This document shows, piece after piece, positions 3,145 to 53,655 of a DNA stretch of 64,000 nucleotides. A program made the position numbers and the translations under genes. The notes under the pieces were generated by a model. The model was not told the DNA's origin, made no database searches, and saw only the letters and a program-made list of their open reading frames with translations. The stretch covers positions 4,352 to 68,351 of the forward strand of contig CAKQRB010000052.1 in NCBI GenBank assembly GCA_934271195.1. The letters are read 5' to 3'. This DNA comes from an uncultured Alphaproteobacteria bacterium. Its GTDB lineage: Bacteria > Pseudomonadota > Alphaproteobacteria > RF32 > CAG-239. The stretch's first letter is position 1, and every line of letters starts with the position of its first letter.

Positions 3145-3864
3145 CTATTCCTCGTTTTTAATTATCGTAAACTCGCCTTCGCCGCACACGGCTTTCATCA
3201 AAGCATTTTCTCCGGCCTGCGCAAACACAACCACAGGAATGCGATTTTCCCGCGCCAGCGCCACAGCCGCCGTATCCATAACTTTGAGCTGCTTATTGAT
3301 AACCGTGTCATAATCAATAACCTGATATTTCTGTGCTTGCGGATTTTTGAGCGGATCGCTGTCATAAACACCGTCGACCTGCGTTGCTTTCAAAATAACA
3401 TCGCATTTCATCTCAGACGCACGCAGTGCCGCCGCCGTATCGGTCGTAAAAAACGGATTCCCCGTGCCGGCCGCAAAAATGACTATCCGCCCTTTTTCCA
3501 AATGATGCAACCCTTTGCGATAAACATAATGCTCGCATACGTCGGGAATATTCAATGCCGACATAACGCGCGACGGAACCTTCAGCCGCTCCAGAGCATT
3601 CTGAATAAAAAGCGCGTTCATGACCGTTGCCAGCATCCCGACCTGATGCGCCACAACCGGCGCCATTTCTTTTGAGGCGTCTTTAGCACCGCGAAAAATA
3701 TTGCCGCCGCCGACAACGATACAAACTTCCACGCCGGCATTGGCAATCTCTTCAATCTGTCCGGCCAGAGTTTTAATGACCTCTTCCGACATTCCGTAAG
3801 GCTTATTCCCCAGCAGCCCCTCGCCGGAAAGCTTCAGGAGGATTCTTTTATATACAGGTTTCAT
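3145..3864 (-). CDS. pyrH: UMP kinase
   Basis: KRILLKLSGEGL N-terminus, amino-acid-kinase fold motifs. pyrH-frr adjacency. Start chosen at the third residue Met (MKPVYK). Confidence 0.9.
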   Translation of the reverse strand: MKPVYKRILLKLSGEGLLGNKPYGMSEEVIKTLAGQIEEIANAGVEVCIVVGGGNIFRGAKDASKEMAPVVAHQVGMLATVMNALFIQNALERLKVPSRVMSALNIPDVCEHYVYRKGLHHLEKGRIVIFAAGTGNPFFTTDTAAALRASEMKCDVILKATQVDGVYDSDPLKNPQAQKYQVIDYDTVINKQLKVMDTAAVALARENRIPVVVFAQAGENALMKAVCGEGEFTIIKNEE

Positions 3865-18278: not shown

Positions 18279-18311
18279 AAAGAGTGATATGAAAACATAT
18301 CACTCTTTTTC
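18279..18311. terminator. Rho-independent terminator, apparently bidirectional
   Basis: AGAGTGATATG-aaaa-CATATCACTCT hairpin, flanked by an A-run on the left and TTTTT on the right. Sits directly after the U32 gene stop and at the end of the minus-strand small ORF. Confidence 0.7.
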
Positions 18312-18315
18312 GTCC

Positions 18316-18549
18316 TTAAAAAAGCAGATGAATTGCACCCACCACTGCAAAAAACCAACAAGACTTGTCAACAAATCCAAACAAAAACAGCAACAAAACC
18401 ATAAAAGCGACAAGACAGTTACTAACAACAGCAAGCTCGTCCTTAATTTCAAATGCCCAGTCAATGACTAAAACAAACACAAAAAGCATTAATACTGCTG
18501 AAGAATAATTGGTATTTGCAAACTCAATAAAATGTTTTATTTCTTCCAT
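18316..18549 (-). CDS. Small hypothetical membrane protein (2 predicted TM helices)
   Basis: 77 aa hydrophobic ORF ending at the bidirectional terminator. No obvious SD, AT-rich upstream. Could be spurious. Confidence 0.3.
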   Translation of the reverse strand: MEEIKHFIEFANTNYSSAVLMLFVFVLVIDWAFEIKDELAVVSNCLVAFMVLLLFLFGFVDKSCWFFAVVGAIHLLF

Positions 18550-18639
18550 ATAATTATATATTTAATAATTCAAAACTATTAAAAGTTAAAACAATAAAAT
18601 TCTTTTGTAAACTGCAAATTTAATATTTTTATAGAATTC

Positions 18640-18985
18640 ACTCTTTTCTTTCCCATATTTTCCTCTTCATATTCTCCCTTATTTCTGTTCACCGACCTTA
18701 TTTTCCACCTCTCATTTTCCGCTTCACATTTTACTCCTCCAACTCCTTTGGCCTCTTCTTTTCTCTCTCACTTCAATACTTATCTTCTCATCTCTTATTT
18801 CAGCCCTCTGCTCATACTTCCAACCATTCTCCTTATCCCCACTTTCTTCTCTCACACCTCGCGGCTTTCCATTCCCCTTATCTTCTGTTTCTCTCTTTCC
18901 TTCCACCTTAGCCTCTTTTAGCCAAAATCCCCTCTGTTTTTCCCGCTCCTCTGCCCAAAATTTCAACATTATTCTTCATGAGTAT
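18640..18985 (+). repeat. Polypyrimidine (CT-rich) tract, copy 1 of a repeated promoter-bearing cassette
   Basis: About 345 bp with almost only C/T on the plus strand. The 3' roughly 100 bp is near-identical to 42110-42207 (…ctttagccaaaatcc[c/t]ctctg…ctgcccaaaatttc[a/c]acattattcttcatgagt[a/g]tttgaca). Confidence 0.8.
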
Positions 18986-19014
18986 TTGACATTATCGTTT
19001 CTTTATGATATACT
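18986..19014 (+). promoter_or_regulatory. Near-consensus sigma70 promoter of Cys-rich paralog 1
   Basis: TTGACA (18986-18991), 17-bp spacer ending in TGA (extended -10 TG), TATACT (19009-19014). Then about a 28-nt leader with SD GGGAGGAAG before the ATG at 19050. Confidence 0.75.
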
Positions 19015-19049
19015 GGTCTTAGGACTTGAACTTTTTAGGGAGGAAGCCG

Positions 19050-20417
19050 ATGAAGAATATTAACACTATGCTACACATGAAACTAAACTCTGCGGTGTCA
19101 GTTTTTGCTGTTGCCGCAGCTTTCTCGGTTTTTCTCCCAACCTCCACATTTGCAGGTGTCTGCTTCCTGCCCGACTGTGCTGATGATGTACCTCTTATTG
19201 AACCAGATGTTAAATATTGTGAAAGCAACGGCTTCACCTACTATGCTGACGGCAAGTGTCCGCAATATTATGCCAATGTCGGAAAATGTTCCCGTGACGA
19301 CCATTATCTTAAATGCGACGCCGCGAAGTGGTGTAAACAAAATGGATATAACACGACCTCATGCTCCATTCCTAAATATGTTGACACTCCTTGTCCGAGT
19401 GACGGTTCTCTTTACAAACAATGCAAGACTGACAATCCCCGCGCTTGTCAGGAGGCCGGTTATACCAAGACTTGTCCTTCCGGTCAGAAACTTAAAAAGA
19501 ACTCCAGCCGTTGCTCTTATGATAATTCTTACGGAACCTGTTGTAAACCGTCAGGTTGTCCCGCTCATACTTCATTAACCTCTTCGTCCTACGGAACTAA
19601 CGGTACTGATGGCTGCGAATATACCTGTTATTACACCTGCAACATGAACTGCCCGTCCGGTACTTCAACTTCCAACCCCGGAGGTTGTGGCGGGTCGACA
19701 CGTAACGGATGTAACACAAAAACTTGTTATTATCCTTATCAATCATGCTGCACACCAAAGTGTTCAGATGAGCATGGTTGCTCATGTGGAACAACTTCCG
19801 TTTCTGACGGATGCGGCGGAACTTGTACAAAATGTAAATCTTGTTGTAATCGCTACTCTTCAAACTGGTGTTCTGTTCACTCAACCTGTCATGGAGATTG
19901 CTGCTCTGATGGAACAATAAAACCTTGTGATACGCAATGCGGGGGTTCAGGTTGCTCTACTTGTAATAGCTCCTCTTCAAACTGGTGTTCCGTTCACTCG
20001 ACCTGTCATGGAGATTGCTGCTCTGACGGATCGATCAAACCTTGTGACACACGCTGCGGCGGATCAGGTTGCTCTACCGGCGGCGGTGGCGGCGGCGAAA
20101 CGGGTGGAAGTTCTAGCTGTTCTGGATACAGCTCTTGTTCAACTGAGTGTACTGGCGTAACCAACACCACACCTCACTGTCAAAATCGTTATAATGATGG
20201 CAGCGGTTACAATTATATCGCTCTGGTATGCAATCTGAATATTTCCAGAACCCGCGTTACCTGCAACGGACAAACCGAAACTGATGGCGGTATCGCTTAT
20301 GAACAGCTAGACCGCTGGAGCACAGGCAACCAAACAAACGACATAGCAGCTTGCGAGGCAAAACGCAAAAACACGACCTGCGTCTGCTCAAGTTACCGCT
20401 GGCCATACAACTGTTAA
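19050..20417 (+). CDS. Secreted hyper-cysteine-rich protein, paralog 1 (unknown function)
   Basis: Start is set at the ATG after SD GGGAGGAAG (the ORF track begins upstream at a TTG at 19026). Sec-type signal peptide (MKNINTMLHMKLNSAVSVFAVAAAFSVFLPTSTFA), no lipobox. The mature part is very Cys-rich with many CxC/CC/CxxC spacings and is Gly/Ser/Thr/Asn rich. It carries a 39-aa tandem duplication. Paralog at 42274-43422. Confidence 0.85.
   Translation: MKNINTMLHMKLNSAVSVFAVAAAFSVFLPTSTFAGVCFLPDCADDVPLIEPDVKYCESNGFTYYADGKCPQYYANVGKCSRDDHYLKCDAAKWCKQNGYNTTSCSIPKYVDTPCPSDGSLYKQCKTDNPRACQEAGYTKTCPSGQKLKKNSSRCSYDNSYGTCCKPSGCPAHTSLTSSSYGTNGTDGCEYTCYYTCNMNCPSGTSTSNPGGCGGSTRNGCNTKTCYYPYQSCCTPKCSDEHGCSCGTTSVSDGCGGTCTKCKSCCNRYSSNWCSVHSTCHGDCCSDGTIKPCDTQCGGSGCSTCNSSSSNWCSVHSTCHGDCCSDGSIKPCDTRCGGSGCSTGGGGGGETGGSSSCSGYSSCSTECTGVTNTTPHCQNRYNDGSGYNYIALVCNLNISRTRVTCNGQTETDGGIAYEQLDRWSTGNQTNDIAACEAKRKNTTCVCSSYRWPYNC
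19857..20077 (+). repeat. In-frame tandem duplication inside Cys-rich paralog 1
   Basis: Two 104-bp units (19857-19960 and 19974-20077) separated by 13 bp, giving a 117-bp (39-codon) period and roughly 90% identity. They encode SSNWCSVHSTCHGDCCSDG(T/S)IKPCDT(Q/R)CGGSGCST twice. Paralog 2 has a single copy. Confidence 0.85.
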
Positions 20418-28722: not shown

Positions 28723-28789
28723 TAGTCCCCCGGATCATAAAATTTTATTTTTAATCCTACCCGCAATTTCTAAAATAAACCTTAAAATA

Positions 28790-29046
28790 TCTGATGAAAT
28801 AAAAAAACTTTTATCCTCTTTTTTCCTTTTATTTCTCTCCGTCCTCTTCCCCTTTCCCTATCTTGCCTCTTTTTTATTCTTCATTATTTTTCTCTTTCTT
28901 CTTCTCTTATCTCTCCGCTTTCGCCATTCTGCTTCTCTCATCATTCCAATTAACCAAAGTCCCCACGGCTTTCTTCACCTGTTATCCCAAACCCTGCTCG
29001 ACTTTTTATTGCATGTCAAATTTTGCACTTCTTTATGCTGTAGTAT
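28790..29046 (+). repeat. Polypyrimidine tract plus degenerate promoter, copy 3 of the cassette (orphan/decayed)
   Basis: CT-rich plus strand (about 28790-29000) ending in …ccaaagtcccc…cccaaaccctgc…ttgcatgtcaaattttgcacttctttatgctgTAGTAT. This aligns with the …ccaaaatcccc…gcccaaaatttc…tttgacattatcgtttctttatgaTATACT of copies 1 and 2, with indels in the spacer. No intact downstream gene. Confidence 0.6.
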
Positions 29047-29329
29047 CCGAATTGTCACCTGCAAGCCGGATGGCGCCGGTTTTATGCGGTGTCTTAAACT
29101 CCGTATTGCTCTGGCGGAATGTATGACAAAGTATGTGCTTTGAAAGGTTTGTCATTGCCGGACTTCAAACCGGCAATTCATAAAAAAAAGAAGCAGAGTG
29201 CCGACTGTGAAACGGTTTCTCGGATCAAGTCCAAGAATGACAAGAAAAGAATTTTATTAACCGTTCTGATCTGGGCACTCTGTTGTTCAGATAAAGAAAA
29301 GAGCAACGCGCAAGCTCTTTGCAAACTTT

Positions 29330-34045: not shown

Positions 34046-34425
34046 TACCGGCCGCAAGACGCCGATCCGTCACTGTTACAGCCTCCTGCAAAAGCGTTAG
34101 AAGACGTGCAAAGAGGGAAAAGCAAAGGAGATTTTGGTTAATTAGAATAATAGGAGCGTGGAATGAGAAAAAAGAGGAAAGAAAATAAAAAAATGCACCG
34201 GAATAATCCGGCGCATTTTTCAATTCTACTTTCCTCTCGTCCCTTTTCTCGGAACATTTTGAGAGATTTTAACTCTCTGTTCGGCAGAAATTCTGCTCCT
34301 GTCAGCTTCTACCAATTTTTGAGAAGTTCTTCTCGGAGCCAAAATCTGCATCGGTTTGGCCAAAACACCAAACTTTCGGGCAATTTTTTTTAGTTTTTCT
34401 AACATACTCTTAAATTTTAAGATTA

Positions 34426-40188: not shown

Positions 40189-41868
40189 ATGGCTTCTTAC
40201 CAATATATTTTCGTAATGCAAAACCTGACCAAAGTCTTTCCCGGCGGCAAAGAGCTTTTCAAAGGCATCACTTTGTCCTTTCTGCCCGGTGCCAAAATCG
40301 GCGTTTTGGGCGTTAACGGCGCCGGAAAATCGACTTTGCTGAAAATTATGGCCGGAGTCGATAAAGACTTTAACGGCGAGGCTTGGGCTGCTGAAGGCGC
40401 CCGCGTCGGCTATCTTGAACAAGAGCCTAAACTTGACCCGTCAAAAAACGTGATTGAAAACATCATGGACGGCTTGGGAGAAACAAGAGACCTATTAAAA
40501 CGCTTTGAAGAAGTTTCCGCAAAATTTGCCGAGCCGATGAGCGATGAAGAAATGAATGCCTTGATCGAAGAGCAGGCAGCCCTGCAGGAAAAAATCGACG
40601 CCTGCAACGGCTGGGATTTTGAACGGACAATTGAAATCGCCATGGATGCCCTGCGCTGCCCGCCGGCCGATTCCGACGTCACCAAACTTTCTGGCGGAGA
40701 AAAACGCCGTGTCGCCCTCTGCCGCCTGCTGCTGCAAAAACCGGATATGCTGCTGCTCGACGAACCGACCAACCATCTGGATGCCGAGTCCGTGGCTTGG
40801 CTGGAAAAACATCTGCAAAATTATAACGGAACCGTTGTCATGGTGACGCACGACCGCTATTTTCTTGACAACGTTACCGGCTGGATTCTGGAGCTTGACC
40901 GCGGACAGGGAATCCCTTATGAAGGCAACTATTCTTCCTGGCTGGAACAAAAACAAAAACGTCTGGAACAAGAATCCCGAGAAGAGACAGCCCGTCAGAA
41001 AACACTGGCCAATGAGTTGGAATGGATTCAGAAAAATCCTAAAGCCCGTCAGGCAAAATCCAAAGCCCGTATTAACGCTTATGAAGAACTTCTGGCGCAA
41101 TCCGGCAAAGACAAGCTCTCTTTTGCCAGCATCAATATCCCGATGACCGACCGTCTGGGCGATTTGGTTATTGAAGCCAATGGCATTTCCAAAGGCTACG
41201 GCGACAAACTGCTGATTGACAACCTTTCTTTCAAAATTCCAAAAGGTGCGATTGTCGGCATCATTGGCCCGAACGGCGCCGGCAAAACCACATTGTTCCG
41301 CATGATAACCGGTCAGGAGAAGCCGGATTCGGGAACAATCCGCCTTGGTGAAACTGTCGACCTCGGCTACGTGGACCAATCCCGCGACGAACTTAATGCC
41401 GGCAAAACCGTCTGGGAAGAAATTTCCGACGGCCTTGATATGATCCAGCTCGGCAAGAAAGAAATGCCATCCCGCGCCTATGTCGGACAATTTAACTTCA
41501 AAGGTGCTGACCAGCAAAAGAAAGTCGGACAGCTTTCCGGCGGAGAAAGAAATCGAGTCCATCTGGCTAAAATGCTCAAAAAAGGTGCCAACGTCATTCT
41601 GCTTGACGAACCGACCAACGACTTGGATGTCGACACACTCAGAGCTTTGGAAGAAGGTATTATGGAATATCCCGGCTGCGTTTTGGTAACCTCGCACGAC
41701 CGCTGGTTTTTAGACCGGCTGGCAACCCATATTCTGGCCTATGAAGGCGACAGTAACGTTGTCTGGTTTGAAGGCAACTTCGAGGAATATGAGAAAGACA
41801 AAAAACGCCGTCTCGGCGAAGATGCCGCCAATCCGCACCGGATTAAATATAAACCGTTAATTCGCTAA
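40189..41868 (+). CDS. ettA: ABC-F translational throttle ATPase EttA
   Basis: Two ABC cassettes (two Walker A GxNGAGKST, two LSGGE signatures). N-terminus [56 protein letters not shown] is typical of EttA. Start moved to that Met. Confidence 0.85.
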
Positions 41869-41881
41869 CAGTGCTTTTCAT

Positions 41882-41914
41882 AAACGGGGTTTTAAATTAA
41901 ACCCCGTTTTTTTA
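41882..41914 (+). terminator. Rho-independent terminator of ettA
   Basis: AAACGGGGTTT-taaatt-AAACCCCGTTT followed by TTTTTT. Confidence 0.8.
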
Positions 41915-41924
41915 ACTCGACTTT

Positions 41925-42207
41925 CTGATATCCTCCCGCTCTTTCATTTTCCGCCTCTCGCCCCTCTTTCCTCTCCCGTTCCTGCATCACCACTCCTTCT
42001 TCTTTCCAATTTTGCCGCCTTTCCTCTTCACCTTCCAAGCTCTTTACTGCTCACACACCTCTTCTCTCATTCCTGTCTTTTTCCTTGCCCCACTTTCTCA
42101 TCACTTCCGTTTTTCTTTCTCTCTTTCCTTCTCATTCCTTTAGCCAAAATCCTCTCTGCTTTTCCTATTCTTCTGCCCAAAATTTCCACATTATTCTTCA
42201 TGAGTGT
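41925..42207 (+). repeat. Polypyrimidine (CT-rich) tract, copy 2 of the cassette
   Basis: About 280 bp CT-rich on the plus strand. The 3' roughly 100 bp and the downstream promoter/leader are near-identical to copy 1. Confidence 0.8.
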
Positions 42208-42236
42208 TTGACACTGGCGTTTCTTTATGATATACT
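42208..42236 (+). promoter_or_regulatory. Near-consensus sigma70 promoter of Cys-rich paralog 2
   Basis: TTGACA (42208-42213), 17-bp spacer ending in TGA, TATACT (42231-42236). Same SD GGGAGGAAG before the ATG at 42274. Confidence 0.75.
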
Positions 42237-42273
42237 GATCTCTTAGTATTGGAACTTTTTAGGGAGGAAGCCG

Positions 42274-43422
42274 ATGAAGAATACTAACACTATGCTACAC
42301 ATGAAACTAAACTCTGCGGTGTCAGTTTTTGCTGTTGCCGCAGCTTTCTCGGTCCTCCTCCCAACCTCCGCTTACTGTGGCGTTTGCTTCCTGCCAGACT
42401 GTGCTGATGATGATCTTGCCGGTGGCGGCGGAAACATGAATAAGAATGAAGATTCTGCTTTTTGTGAAAGCAACGGCTTCACCCACTATGCTGACGGCAA
42501 GTGTCCGCAATATTATGCCGATGCCGGAAAATGTTCCCGTGACGACCATTATCTTAAATGCGACGCCGCGAAGTGGTGTAAACAAAACGGATATAACACG
42601 ACCTCATGCTCCATTCCTCAATATGTTGACACTCCTTGTCCGAGTGACGATTCTCTTTACAAACAATGCAAGACTGACAATCCCCGCGCTTGTCAGGATA
42701 CAGGTTATACTAACTCTTGTCCTTCCGGTCAGAAGCTTAAAAAGAACTCCGGACGATGCTCTTATGATTCTTCTTACGGAACCTGTTGTAAACCGTCAGG
42801 TTGTCCCGCTTATACTTCTCTTGCCTCTACCAACTACGGAACTAACGGTACTGATGGCTGCGAATATACCTGTTATTACACCTGCAACATGAATTGTCCG
42901 TCTTCTTATCCTTATTCTTCTGATCCGACAGGTTGTTCCAACAGCACGACAAACGGATGCGGCAATAAGTCATGTTATAACTCCGTTTCATGTTGTAATC
43001 GCTACTCTTCAAACTGGTGTTCCGTTCACTCAACATGTCATGGTGACTGCTGTACTGACGGAACAATAAAACCTTGTGATACGCAATGCGGTGGCTCTGG
43101 ATGCAGCAGCTCAGGAGGAAGCTCAGGAGGGGGAGGCTGCTCAAAATACTATACTTGGCAAAGTGGACGCGTAAATGGAAACTCAGTTACATATACCTAT
43201 TCTGTTACCTGTCAATGCTCAGACGGTTCATCCCGTGACTTGGGAACAGAAACAACTTCTAGTGGTTGCTGGGATTGCGATTATTCTCATCTTTCTTGCA
43301 AAGCCGGCTGTGGTTCAAGCTGTTATCACCGCAATTCAGCCTATGCCGGTGCACCTTACTATCACTATATTGATTATTCAGGTGAAGACTATTGCAACTC
43401 CTACACCGGCGGTTCATGCTAA
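42274..43422 (+). CDS. Secreted hyper-cysteine-rich protein, paralog 2 (unknown function)
   Basis: 382 aa. Signal peptide and the first roughly 170 aa are about 85-90% identical to paralog 1. It has a single copy of the 37-aa CCNRYSSNWCSVHSTCHGDCC(T/S)DGTIKPCDTQCGGSGCS module, a Gly/Ser linker, and an unrelated Cys/Tyr-rich C-terminus. Confidence 0.85.
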   Translation: MKNTNTMLHMKLNSAVSVFAVAAAFSVLLPTSAYCGVCFLPDCADDDLAGGGGNMNKNEDSAFCESNGFTHYADGKCPQYYADAGKCSRDDHYLKCDAAKWCKQNGYNTTSCSIPQYVDTPCPSDDSLYKQCKTDNPRACQDTGYTNSCPSGQKLKKNSGRCSYDSSYGTCCKPSGCPAYTSLASTNYGTNGTDGCEYTCYYTCNMNCPSSYPYSSDPTGCSNSTTNGCGNKSCYNSVSCCNRYSSNWCSVHSTCHGDCCTDGTIKPCDTQCGGSGCSSSGGSSGGGGCSKYYTWQSGRVNGNSVTYTYSVTCQCSDGSSRDLGTETTSSGCWDCDYSHLSCKAGCGSSCYHRNSAYAGAPYYHYIDYSGEDYCNSYTGGSC

Positions 43423-47273: not shown

Positions 47274-47474
47274 GGTCTATTTAGCTCCTTAAGCTTATAA
47301 AGTTAAAATATAGTTGTATCAGAAATACAACCCGTTAAAGTTAAAAACTGCGTTGAATTTAGAACATTTCTGACGATTCTACAAGCAAAATTTTTGATTC
47401 GAAGATTTATACACAGATTCCGCCGATTCGACGGCATTACTCTTTTTAACATTCAACTTTCTCCTCTGTTTTAC

Positions 47475-47555
47475 CGCCTGCATGAGAAGAACTCAAATTT
47501 AGAAAGGTGTAGAATGAGACTAATAAGGCGGCTTTTAGCTGCGAGAAAAATTTTA
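47475..47555. repeat. 81-bp direct repeat, copy A (ppdK-pyk intergenic)
   Basis: CGCCTGCATGAGAAGAACTCAAATTTAGAAAGGTGTAGAATGAGACTAATAAGGCGGCTTTTAGCTGCGAGAAAAATTTTA, repeated with one mismatch at 47651-47731. Confidence 0.85.
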
Positions 47556-47650: not shown

Positions 47651-47731
47651 CGCCTGCATGAGAAGAACTCAAATTTAGAAGGGTGTAGAATGAGACTAAT
47701 AAGGCGGCTTTTAGCTGCGAGAAAAATTTTA
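47651..47731. repeat. 81-bp direct repeat, copy B
   Basis: 80/81 identical to copy A, with a 176-bp period. Each copy is followed on the plus strand by a GTGTAC…GTACA(C/T) hairpin plus AATTTT(T). Confidence 0.85.
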
Positions 47732-53564: not shown

Positions 53565-53655
53565 CAATAAAAAATAAACGACTCTATAAAAAGAGGAAAA
53601 TAAAACTAAACATTAAAACACCGTCTGAACAAACTGTTCAAACGGTATCTTAAAT

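What the first reader, a model, noticed from the sequence alone, without database searches (positions are those of the whole stretch)
18640..19049. Repeated cassette: long polypyrimidine tract ending in a consensus sigma70 promoter
Upstream of each Cys-rich gene the plus strand is almost pure C/T for roughly 280-345 bp (18640-18985 and 41925-42207), with no simple-repeat periodicity. Each tract ends in TTGACA, a 17-bp spacer and TG-n-TATACT, then a 28-nt leader with SD GGGAGGAAG. The last roughly 100 bp of the tract plus the promoter and leader are near-identical between copies; the distal part is only compositionally conserved. Such extended homopyrimidine/homopurine strand asymmetry is rare in bacterial intergenic DNA. 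It could form H-DNA or act as an intrinsically rigid, bent upstream element. The antisense strand would give a GA-rich RNA loaded with GGA/ARN motifs, a potential RNA-chaperone sponge. The tract could also be a binding array for a dedicated regulator. Whatever the mechanism, it looks like a dedicated high-level or regulated expression cassette specific to this gene family.
Basis: partly seen in the sequence, partly recalled or inferred. Interest (0 to 1): 0.8.

Follow-up and report, generated by a model that had tools for sequence, protein, structure and literature searches.

The report
Pyrimidine-strand spacer upstream of family promoter
A 150-650 bp stretch of DNA that is about 80-87% C/T on one strand sits just upstream of a conserved strong promoter that drives a much-expanded family of secreted cysteine-rich proteins in uncultured gut Alphaproteobacteria. 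The stretch is real and unusual, but it is an optional, fast-rearranging spacer, not the part that makes the promoter work.

Summary
The two tracts are 79.5% and 80.9% pyrimidine, not "almost pure". They have no periodicity. Each runs into TTGACA-17-TGnTATACT, a short leader and a strong SD. A third tract (28786-28988) heads an orphan cassette whose gene is lost, and two smaller remnants exist.

Eighty related loci from six gut MAG species show what is conserved: a box (T[AG][GC]CCAAAAT) 35 nt upstream of a near-consensus extended -10 promoter, found in 58 of 74 loci. The tract occurs in only 14 of 66 loci. All 14 are in one clade, on the gene strand, and at the 5' edge of the block that varies between conserved flanks.

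The tracts are non-coding mosaics of shuffled shared segments. They are stable between strains. One allele-swapping breakpoint lies inside tract 1.

Tested and not supported: H-DNA mirror repeats, G4/i-motif, tandem repeats and phase variation, coding, an antisense promoter.

My best reading (about 0.45) is a non-essential, recombination-shuffled spacer that buffers the cassette. Two results keep a composition-encoded function open: a mild deficit of purine-creating substitutions, and the placement of all typical tracts on the C-rich replication strand.

The parts
18631..18917 (+). Tract 1: non-coding pyrimidine-strand spacer at the 5' edge of cassette 1
   Evidence: 79.5% Y over 18640-18985. 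Homology to the orthologous locus L074 stops at 18630. Between strains, the distal ~200 nt are 99% identical and divergence starts near 18830.
18918..18985 (+). Two-box promoter-upstream region: TTAGCCAAAAT at 18918-18928 and TGCCCAAAAT at 18952-18961
   Evidence: The motif gives 4 hits in the window against 0.03 expected. The box lies 35 nt upstream of the -35 hexamer in most family loci.
18986..19014 (+). Sigma-70-type promoter: TTGACA, 17 nt, TG-n-TATACT
   Evidence: 11 of 12 positions, extended -10. Conserved across the family.
19015..19049 (+). Short leader with SD GGGAGGAAG (19038-19046)
   Evidence: Read directly. The same short leader occurs in L015, L019, L057 and L063.
19050..20417 (+). 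Cys-rich secreted protein gene, copy 1 (455 aa from the conserved ATG)
   Evidence: No Pfam family.
41920..42139 (+). Tract 2: pyrimidine-strand spacer that follows the ettA terminator
   Evidence: 80.9% Y over 41925-42207. Terminator at 41882-41909. Only 3 C<->T changes against strain L169.
42140..42207 (+). Two-box region of cassette 2: TTAGCCAAAAT at 42140-42150 and TGCCCAAAAT at 42174-42183
42208..42236 (+). Promoter of cassette 2: TTGACA, 17 nt, TG-n-TATACT
42237..42273 (+). Leader with SD GGGAGGAAG (42262-42270)
42274..43422 (+). Cys-rich secreted protein gene, copy 2 (382 aa)
   Evidence: In the AlphaFold model only residues 57-145 are confident, and there is no PDB fold match.
28786..28949 (+). 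Tract 3: spacer of an orphan cassette between mraY and kdsB
   Evidence: Identical in six strains. Orthologous loci L023, L066 and L079 carry a Cys-rich gene here.
28950..29045 (+). Degenerate box (TTAACCAAAGT) and decayed promoter of the orphan cassette (TCAAAT ... TGcTGTAGT)
   Evidence: No promoter-like site is scored here.
29046..29311 (+). Remnant long leader of the orphan cassette (modules R, H and A of the family leaders). The gene is deleted.
34119..34190 (-). Remnant of a further cassette: a box with 2 mismatches preceded by about 50 nt of C/T-rich sequence, with no promoter and no gene
53585..53640 (-). Scar of a deleted cassette. L080 and L026 carry a cassette at this position.

Best explanation
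The working expression unit is the box, the promoter and the leader in front of each Cys-rich gene. The box (T[AG][GC]CCAAAAT) sits 35 nt upstream of a near-consensus extended -10 sigma-70 promoter.

The pyrimidine tract is a non-coding and probably untranscribed spacer. It forms the variable 5' arm of this cassette and is not needed for the promoter.

Origin. It arose in one clade by in-situ growth of a short pyrimidine-rich linker and box region. The steps were box duplication, segmental duplication and micro-duplication. Recombination among cassette copies then reshuffled it. Crossovers that swap cassette alleles fall inside it or at its edge. C<->T transitions, which keep a pyrimidine a pyrimidine, help preserve its composition.

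Likely effect. The effect is passive. The tract is a buffer with almost no promoter-like hexamers, start codons or self-complementarity. It separates a strong promoter from the neighbouring gene (often a divergent housekeeping gene) and gives recombination a place to resolve without damaging that neighbour.

Shown: the anatomy, the distribution, the mosaicism, stability between strains, one breakpoint, and the absence of the known structural motifs.

Inferred: the mode of origin, the lack of transcription, and the buffering effect.
For: - The promoter and box are conserved in 58 of 74 loci of six species. The tract occurs in 14 of 66 loci, only with two-box promoters and only in the clade whose flanks are 90-94% identical to the window.
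- At the mraY locus the distant species (L012) has only a ~30-nt pyrimidine-rich linker where the window, L023 and L079 have 160-300-nt tracts.
- Orthologous loci with 91-94% identical flanks lose alignment exactly at the tract start (18630, 28812) and regain it just after the gene.
- The tracts are non-collinear mosaics of shared 16-237-nt segments.
- Repeated 7-10-mers inside tracts are in excess (z 2.4-3.5). L094 repeats a ~45-nt segment three times.
- Words from the box unit are enriched in tracts. A box profile scores weakly above shuffles (z about 2).
- Two alleles of locus 1 are 99% identical over the distal ~200 nt of the tract. They diverge from about 18830 on and carry different gene subfamilies.
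- The tracts are not hypermutable. Tract 3 is identical in six strains, and tract 2 differs by 3 C<->T changes.
- Not coding: no lag-3 periodicity, and minus-strand ORFs read the boxes in different frames in copies 1 and 2.
- The orphan cassette keeps its tract although its promoter has decayed and its gene is gone. A tract can therefore persist without a working cassette.
Against: - Pyrimidine content stays flat at 0.82-0.87 for 450 nt from the box, with a sharp outer edge. It does not decay with distance as old duplicates should.
- Purine-creating transversions are fewer than expected: 45 of 173 substitutions, 26%, against about 36% expected from 4-fold sites (naive p = 0.003). All 6 between-strain changes inside tracts are C<->T.
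- Every typical tract-bearing cassette lies with its gene on the C-rich strand, at 9 of 9 independent loci, while tract-less cassettes of the same clade are mixed. A purely neutral by-product does not predict this.
- Several hundred bp of functionless DNA is unusual in compact bacterial genomes.
- The evidence that tracts derive from box units is weak.
Confidence: 0.45

Rival explanations
1. Transcriptional insulator acting through RNA. Any transcript that enters the tract towards the cassette would be C-rich (about 40%), G-poor (about 5%) and unstructured. That is an ideal loading pad (rut-like) for Rho. It would also be held by a weak rPyrimidine:dPurine hybrid, so read-in transcription would stop before the family promoter.
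For: - Pooled composition is T41 C40 A13 G6% over 150-650 nt with no self-complementarity.
- The strand polarity is always the one this model predicts, in 17 of 17 tracts.
- In L036 the co-oriented upstream gene has no obvious intrinsic terminator before the tract.
Against: - About half of the tract loci have a divergent upstream gene, so nothing reads in.
- Most tandem loci already have a strong intrinsic terminator just before the tract: W2, L056, L080 and L024.
- No plus-strand promoter feeds the tracts.
- The constant polarity is also explained by common descent, because the tracts share segments.
Confidence: 0.13
2. Recombination-promoting element. The strand-asymmetric tract actively stimulates or positions the gene conversion that swaps cassette alleles. 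The analogy is with upstream homology or non-B elements next to variable surface-protein genes.
For: - A breakpoint lies inside tract 1 between two alleles of one species.
- The homology limits of orthologous loci fall at the tract edge.
- Segments are shuffled between non-orthologous cassettes.
- Paralogues within the window are 88-95% alike at their 5' ends, while positional orthologues are below 70%. That pattern indicates concerted evolution.
Against: - Species without tracts (BN, ER, T5) have equally expanded, mosaic families.
- Between the window's own copies, homogenisation stops at the box and does not extend into the tract.
- There is no conserved 3' partner element.
- The window tracts have no G4, i-motif or mirror-repeat motif.
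- Only one strain-level breakpoint has been seen.
Confidence: 0.12
3. DNA-structural upstream element. A stiff homopurine-homopyrimidine duplex, poor in flexible pyrimidine-purine steps, would exclude nucleoid proteins or buffer the negative supercoils produced behind a strong promoter. It would thereby tune the cassette promoter and decouple it from a back-to-back neighbour.
For: - The tract loci are enriched for divergent neighbours, roughly 50-64% against 21% (a crude count).
- Composition, not sequence, is what is kept.
- Purine-creating changes show a mild deficit.
Against: - There is no mirror symmetry for H-DNA: arms are 6-8 nt, no more than in shuffles.
- The tract is interrupted every 18-28 nt at most.
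- Most family promoters work without it, including divergent arrangements such as L012.
- There is no 10-11-nt phasing.
Confidence: 0.1
4. Binding array for a dedicated regulator that recognises box-like sites (YNGCC...) scattered through the tract.
For: - The box itself is strongly conserved. Its position, centred about 65 nt (and about 100 nt for the second box) upstream of the start site, suits an activator (the activator reading is inference).
- Box-derived words such as CCTCTGCCC and CTGCTTTTC are enriched in tracts.
Against: - Outside the one or two boxes next to the promoter, the A-run that defines the box is missing.
- A box profile scores barely above shuffles.
- G and A positions show no spacing regularity.
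- Orthologous tracts are not alignable.
Confidence: 0.07
5. Antisense GA-rich RNA that sponges an RNA-binding protein, or a translated product of the tract.
For: The minus strand of the tract is rich in GGA/AGGA motifs, which follows from its composition.
Against: - No minus-strand promoter-like site lies next to the tracts.
- No conserved ORF or reading frame exists.
- There is no lag-3 periodicity.
- Rfam has nothing here.
Confidence: 0.03

Closest known systems
(GAA)n tracts upstream of Mycoplasma gallisepticum vlhA promoters (PMC6258824)
   Same: A homopurine/homopyrimidine tract lies upstream of the individual promoter of every member of a large family of variable exported proteins, with conserved flanking sequence.
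   Different: vlhA has a pure trinucleotide repeat about 40 nt from the start site, and its copy number varies and gates expression. Here the tract is aperiodic and 150-650 nt long. It ends more than 100 nt upstream of the -35 hexamer, does not vary in length between strains, and is absent from most family members.
Rho utilisation (rut) regions
   Same: C-rich, G-poor, unstructured sequence longer than 80 nt on the strand that would be transcribed towards the cassette.
   Different: There is no evidence that the tract is transcribed. Many tracts lie between divergent genes or behind intrinsic terminators. The tract is also as rich in T as in C.
H-DNA-forming homopurine-homopyrimidine mirror repeats (PMC11667243, PMC4060949)
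   Same: Strong purine/pyrimidine strand asymmetry.
   Different: There is no mirror symmetry, and purines interrupt the tract frequently.
Upstream homology or boundary repeats of antigenic-variation cassettes, such as the 70-bp repeats 5' of trypanosome VSG genes and the upstream homology sequences of Borrelia vmp genes (from my own knowledge, not checked here)
   Same: Low-complexity, strand-biased sequence marks the 5' limit of a block that is exchanged between gene copies.
   Different: Every cassette here carries its own promoter. There is no silent archive or single expression site, no repeat unit, and the tract is optional.
Cryptically simple (low-complexity) non-coding DNA generated by slippage and unequal exchange (from my own knowledge)
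   Same: Biased composition, an excess of short internal repeats, rapid turnover between species, and no conserved motif.
   Different: The purity is unusually uniform, the edges are sharp, the strand polarity relative to both the promoter and the replication skew is strict, and transversions show a mild deficit.

Membership tests
vlhA-type (GAA)n phase-variable promoter tract | Tandem trinucleotide repeat | tested here: not met
   TRF finds only 2-copy micro-repeats. There is no lag-3 signal.
vlhA-type (GAA)n phase-variable promoter tract | Repeat number varies between strains or orthologues and gates expression | tested here: not met
   Tract 3 is identical in six strains. Tracts 1 and 2 differ only by C<->T substitutions in their stable part. 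Effects on expression cannot be tested here.
vlhA-type (GAA)n phase-variable promoter tract | Tract lies about 40 nt upstream of the transcription start | tested here: not met
   The tract ends at the first box, about 68 nt upstream of the -35 hexamer.
H-DNA (intramolecular triplex) motif | Homopurine-homopyrimidine mirror repeat with arms of about 10 nt or more | tested here: not met
   The longest perfect pyrimidine mirror arms are 6-8 nt, no more than in dinucleotide shuffles.
G-quadruplex / i-motif element (pilE-type) | Four runs of three or more G (or C) with short loops | tested here: not met
   The window tracts contain no canonical or relaxed motif, and the 25-nt G4Hunter score never exceeds 1.4 in magnitude. 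A few motifs occur in some relatives only.
Rho utilisation (rut) site | C-rich, G-poor, unstructured stretch of 80 nt or more on the RNA strand | tested here: met
   C is 36-45% and G is 3-8% over 150-650 nt.
Rho utilisation (rut) site | Lies in a transcribed, untranslated region | tested here: inconclusive
   It is untranslated. No promoter-like site feeds it, and many upstream genes are divergent or end in a terminator. No RNA data are available.
Sigma-70 extended -10 promoter (the cassette promoter) | TTGACA-like -35, 17-nt spacer, TGn plus TATAAT-like -10 | tested here: met
   11 of 12 positions plus TG in both copies. The pattern is conserved in 58 of 74 family loci. Activity was not tested.
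Contingency locus (simple-sequence phase variation) | Hypermutable repeat whose length differs among close strains | tested here: not met
Protein-coding or known RNA gene | Conserved ORF with codon periodicity, or a match to an RNA family | tested here: not met
   There is no conserved frame and no lag-3 signal. Rfam gives no hit at the gathering threshold and none credible by E-value. No tRNA is found.

The most novel reading that the evidence does not exclude
The tract is a selected element encoded by composition rather than by sequence. It would be tied to strong promoters that face the replication fork. A purine-free coding-strand stretch, always on the C-rich (probably lagging) strand, would act as an orientation-dependent insulator of transcription, supercoiling or recombination, and so make each cassette autonomous. 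No such bacterial element has been described.
Probability: 0.25. Interest if true: 0.75.

Novelty: new variant of a known kind. Interest (0 to 1): 0.5.

Why it matters
If the tract is only a by-product, it still matters. It marks a striking case of modular, recombination-driven evolution of regulatory DNA. The family is very large, with roughly two dozen loci recovered from one MAG. It encodes secreted cysteine-rich proteins of unknown fold, in gut Alphaproteobacteria that have never been cultured.

If composition itself is under selection, it would be a new type of bacterial upstream element. The transversion deficit and the strict placement on the C-rich replication strand hint at this. Such an element would work without any conserved sequence and could be tested directly with reporters.

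Either way, the conserved box-promoter module gives a handle for finding the regulator and the expression conditions of this family.

Tried and rejected
Hypotheses rejected:
- Coding on either strand. Reading frames are not conserved and there is no lag-3 periodicity.
- Tandem or simple repeats.
- H-DNA mirror repeats.
- G4 / i-motif.
- Hypermutable contingency tract.
- Known RNA family or tRNA.
- Antisense promoter.
- A conserved 3' cassette end that could act as a recombination partner.

Tests that were weak or crude:
- Derivation of the whole tract from decayed box units gave only a weak signal, z about 2.
- The link between tract presence and a divergent upstream gene rests on crude ORF calls and is only suggestive.

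Searches that led nowhere:
- The metagenome scan for the two-box pattern gave 72 hits, of which only 2 were real.
- Exact-protein look-ups of the copy 2 protein and of P0002 found nothing. P0001 gave a contig that ends at the promoter.
- The Cys-rich protein has no Pfam family. Only residues 57-145 fold confidently, and there is no PDB fold match.
- The ~90-nt leader module R does not fold better than shuffles. A MAFFT-based consensus fold failed, so its status is open.

Full report
**What is in the window**

Reading 18300-19500 and 41600-42700 confirms two long plus-strand pyrimidine-rich stretches. Each ends in TTGACA, 17 nt, TG-n-TATACT (18986-19014 and 42208-42236). A leader of about 30 nt follows, with SD GGGAGGAAG and an ATG that opens a cysteine-rich ORF (19050-20417 and 42274-43422).

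The stated intervals are 79.5% and 80.9% pyrimidine, not nearly pure. The longest uninterrupted runs are 18-24 nt. The bias is far outside chance. The binomial tail is 1e-24 to 1e-26, and 200 shuffles never exceed 0.657 in 280-nt windows.

There is no periodicity. TRF finds only two-copy micro-repeats. Base autocorrelation shows neither a lag-3 nor a lag-10/11 signal.

The proximal 106 nt of the two copies are 88% identical and the next 172 nt are 90% identical. The distal parts do not align.

A sliding scan found a third tract at 28786-28988. It lies between mraY and kdsB, both on the minus strand.

This third tract carries degenerate versions of the same upstream motif and of the -10 region. 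No scored promoter and no gene follow it.

The motif TTARCCAAARTCCYCNCNGYTTT occurs four times in the window against 0.03 expected. The fourth hit, at 34119-34141 on the minus strand, is a promoterless remnant in a convergent intergenic region.

**The gene family and its promoter**

The proteins have no Pfam family. They have 258 homologues, all from uncultured gut 'Alphaproteobacteria bacterium' MAGs, with several per genome. A signal peptide and a Cys-rich N-terminal domain are conserved, and the C-termini vary. AlphaFold is confident only for residues 57-145, and no PDB fold matches.

A scan of species-representative genomes returned 80 loci from six MAG species of human, mouse, deer and other guts. 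Up to about 25 loci come from a single genome.

In 58 of 74 loci the gene is preceded by TTGACW-N17-TGnTATAGT. A box T[AG][GC]CCAAAAT starts exactly 35 nt upstream of the -35 hexamer. The box-plus-promoter module is therefore the conserved, family-specific expression signal.

Leaders range from 28 to about 600 nt and are mosaics of repeated modules.

**Distribution of the tract**

I scanned 654 kb (the window plus the loci) with 120-nt windows at 80% or more on either strand. This found 17 tracts.
- All 17 are pyrimidine-rich on the gene strand.
- The 14 in the fetched loci all lie within 900 nt upstream of a family gene. In the window, two precede family genes and the third heads the orphan cassette.
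- None occurs elsewhere, and none is in the opposite polarity.

Only 14 of 66 related loci have a tract. None occurs in the three species whose promoters have a single box. Tracts are confined to cassettes with a duplicated box, in the clade whose flanks are 90-94% identical to the window. The tract is thus optional and restricted to one lineage.

**The tract belongs to the variable block**

At the U32-peptidase/ftsZ locus, the orthologous human-gut locus L074 is 91-94% identical up to 18630 and again from 20432. Between those points nothing aligns.

At the mraY/kdsB locus, four species align up to 28812 (28872 for L023) and again from 29311-29327. They hold a full cassette where the window holds only tract, decayed promoter and leader. 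Window copy 3 is therefore an orphan whose gene was deleted.

The more distant species (L012) has only a ~30-nt pyrimidine-rich linker at this site. This points to in-situ growth of the tract.

A further cassette, present in L080 and L026, has been deleted from the window near 53585-53640.

**Internal make-up**

- Pooled composition is T41 C40 A13 G6%.
- Tracts from different loci share 16-237-nt segments in shuffled order.
- Repeated 7-10-mers are in excess within tracts, z 2.4-3.5.
- One metagenomic tract repeats a ~45-nt segment three times.
- Enriched words (CCTCTGCCC, CTGCTTTTC, TTTCCGCC) are words of the box unit.
- A profile of the box unit scores only weakly above shuffles, z about 2.

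**Behaviour between strains**

The exact 77-aa neighbour of tract 1 is found on ten metagenomic contigs, which fall into two alleles.
- The distal ~200 nt of the tract are 99% identical, with three T/C changes.
- The proximal ~90 nt differ by many changes and an indel.
- The promoter and leader are alike again.
- The coding region belongs to a different subfamily.

A recombination junction therefore lies inside the tract.

Tract 3 is identical in six strains, while its leader carries nine differences. Tract 2 differs from another strain by three C/T changes, with more differences from the box onward. The tracts are therefore not hypermutable contingency repeats. Many assemblies break in the tract or at the promoter.

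**Structural and functional ideas tested**

- H-DNA. The longest pyrimidine mirror arms are 6-8 nt, no more than in shuffles.
- G4 / i-motif. The window tracts contain no motif.
- Antisense RNA. No minus-strand promoter-like site reads into a tract. The divergent 77-aa gene has its own site at 18582-18553, outside the tract.
- Coding. Minus-strand ORFs read the boxes in different frames in copies 1 and 2.
- Rho pad. The composition fits. However, roughly half the tract loci have divergent neighbours, and most tandem ones already have a strong terminator.
- No conserved element follows the genes.

**Hints that composition may matter**

- Pyrimidine content is flat at 0.82-0.87 for 450 nt from the box, with only a slow C-to-T drift.
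- In homologous tract segments, 26% of 173 substitutions are transversions. About 36% are expected from the 4-fold-site spectrum of the same genomes (naive p = 0.003). This test is biased by the choice of BLAST segments and by non-independent pairs.
- All six between-strain changes inside tracts are C/T.
- The window has a strong uniform GC skew, -0.10 to -0.23 on the plus strand. Every typical tract-bearing cassette lies with its gene on the C-rich strand, at 9 of 9 independent loci. The binomial p is 0.026 against the family-wide rate, and Fisher p is 0.0007 against tract-less cassettes of the same clade. The sample is small and the cause is unexplained.

**Verdict**

The cassette and its promoter are real and family-specific. 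The tract is a real, unusual, non-coding and strictly polar spacer, but it is optional.

The evidence best fits a recombination-shuffled 5' arm that grew from the pyrimidine-rich box region and acts, at most, as a passive buffer (confidence about 0.45).

Several functional readings remain open:
- Rho pad, 0.13.
- Active recombination element, 0.12.
- Stiff or supercoil-buffering DNA, 0.10.
- Regulator array, 0.07.
- Antisense RNA, 0.03.

The closest described case is the (GAA)n tract of Mycoplasma vlhA promoters (PMC6258824). The tract fails every defining feature of that class that could be tested here.

Noticed in passing
window 29046-29311; leaders in L001-L080 (between the promoter and position ~4000): The 5' leaders of the family range from 28 to ~600 nt and are mosaics of repeated modules. 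One is a ~90-nt module ('CCTGCACGGCAGG...GACCGCGTTGCTATGACGGG...GTGCTTTGAA') present 1-4 times per leader. Others are GC-rich hairpins of the GTCATCCCCGGGCTGCGACCCGGGGATCC type and a conserved SD-proximal module. There is no Rfam match. Single-sequence folds are no better than shuffles, and a MAFFT-based consensus fold failed. They may be a new cis-regulatory RNA or a MITE-like repeat family.
   Followed up: partly
window 1-64000; loci L001-L080: The whole window has a strong uniform GC skew, -0.10 to -0.23 on the plus strand. All typical tract-bearing cassettes have their gene on the C-rich strand, while tract-less cassettes of the same clade are mixed.
   Followed up: partly
window 28786-29311: An orphan cassette (tract, decayed box and promoter, long leader) lies between mraY and kdsB. 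Four related species carry a full Cys-rich gene at the same site, and six strains of this species share the deletion.
   Followed up: yes
window 53585-53640 (-) and 34119-34190 (-): These are scars of two further cassettes. At the first site relatives still carry a cassette (L080, L026). The second is a box remnant with a short C/T stretch in a convergent intergenic region.
   Followed up: partly
window 47475-47555 and 47651-47731: Two 81-nt direct repeats, 99% identical and 176 nt apart, lie in the ~500-nt intergenic region between the genes ending at 47300 and 47802. They have no annotation and no Rfam hit.
   Followed up: no
window 19839-20072 and 42988-43104: A 117-nt unit is repeated in tandem inside Cys-rich gene 1 and occurs once in gene 2. 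It encodes the motif CCNRYSSNWCSVHSTCHGDCCSDGTIKPCDTQCGGSGCS. This is variation in domain-repeat number within the family.
   Followed up: no
L024 ~3200-3370, L041 ~3300-3480, L058 ~3390-3560: A small conserved unit with its own consensus promoter (TTGACAAGTTTTATAATATCGCCTATACT) and terminator sits just upstream of some cassettes. It looks like an sRNA gene. It was not in the Rfam searches run here.
   Followed up: no
L016, L021, L057, L072, L080 (about 150 nt upstream of the box): Another shared upstream module ('GGTGCTTCATTTAGGG...AGGAGATTACATTCAGAAAGTTTATAGTTCAGCC') replaces or follows the tract in several cassettes. Its nature is unknown.
   Followed up: no
L079 3600-4000: At the mraY locus of the human-gut species the family promoter is lost. 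A different promoter (TTGACAACATCCTCAAGATATGATATTATAAT) with a different long leader drives the Cys-rich gene. No Rfam hit was found.
   Followed up: no
L081-L091, L169: Metagenomic contigs that carry these loci very often end inside the tract or at the family promoter. This is consistent with the multi-copy promoter breaking short-read assemblies, so cassette counts in MAGs are probably underestimates.
   Followed up: no
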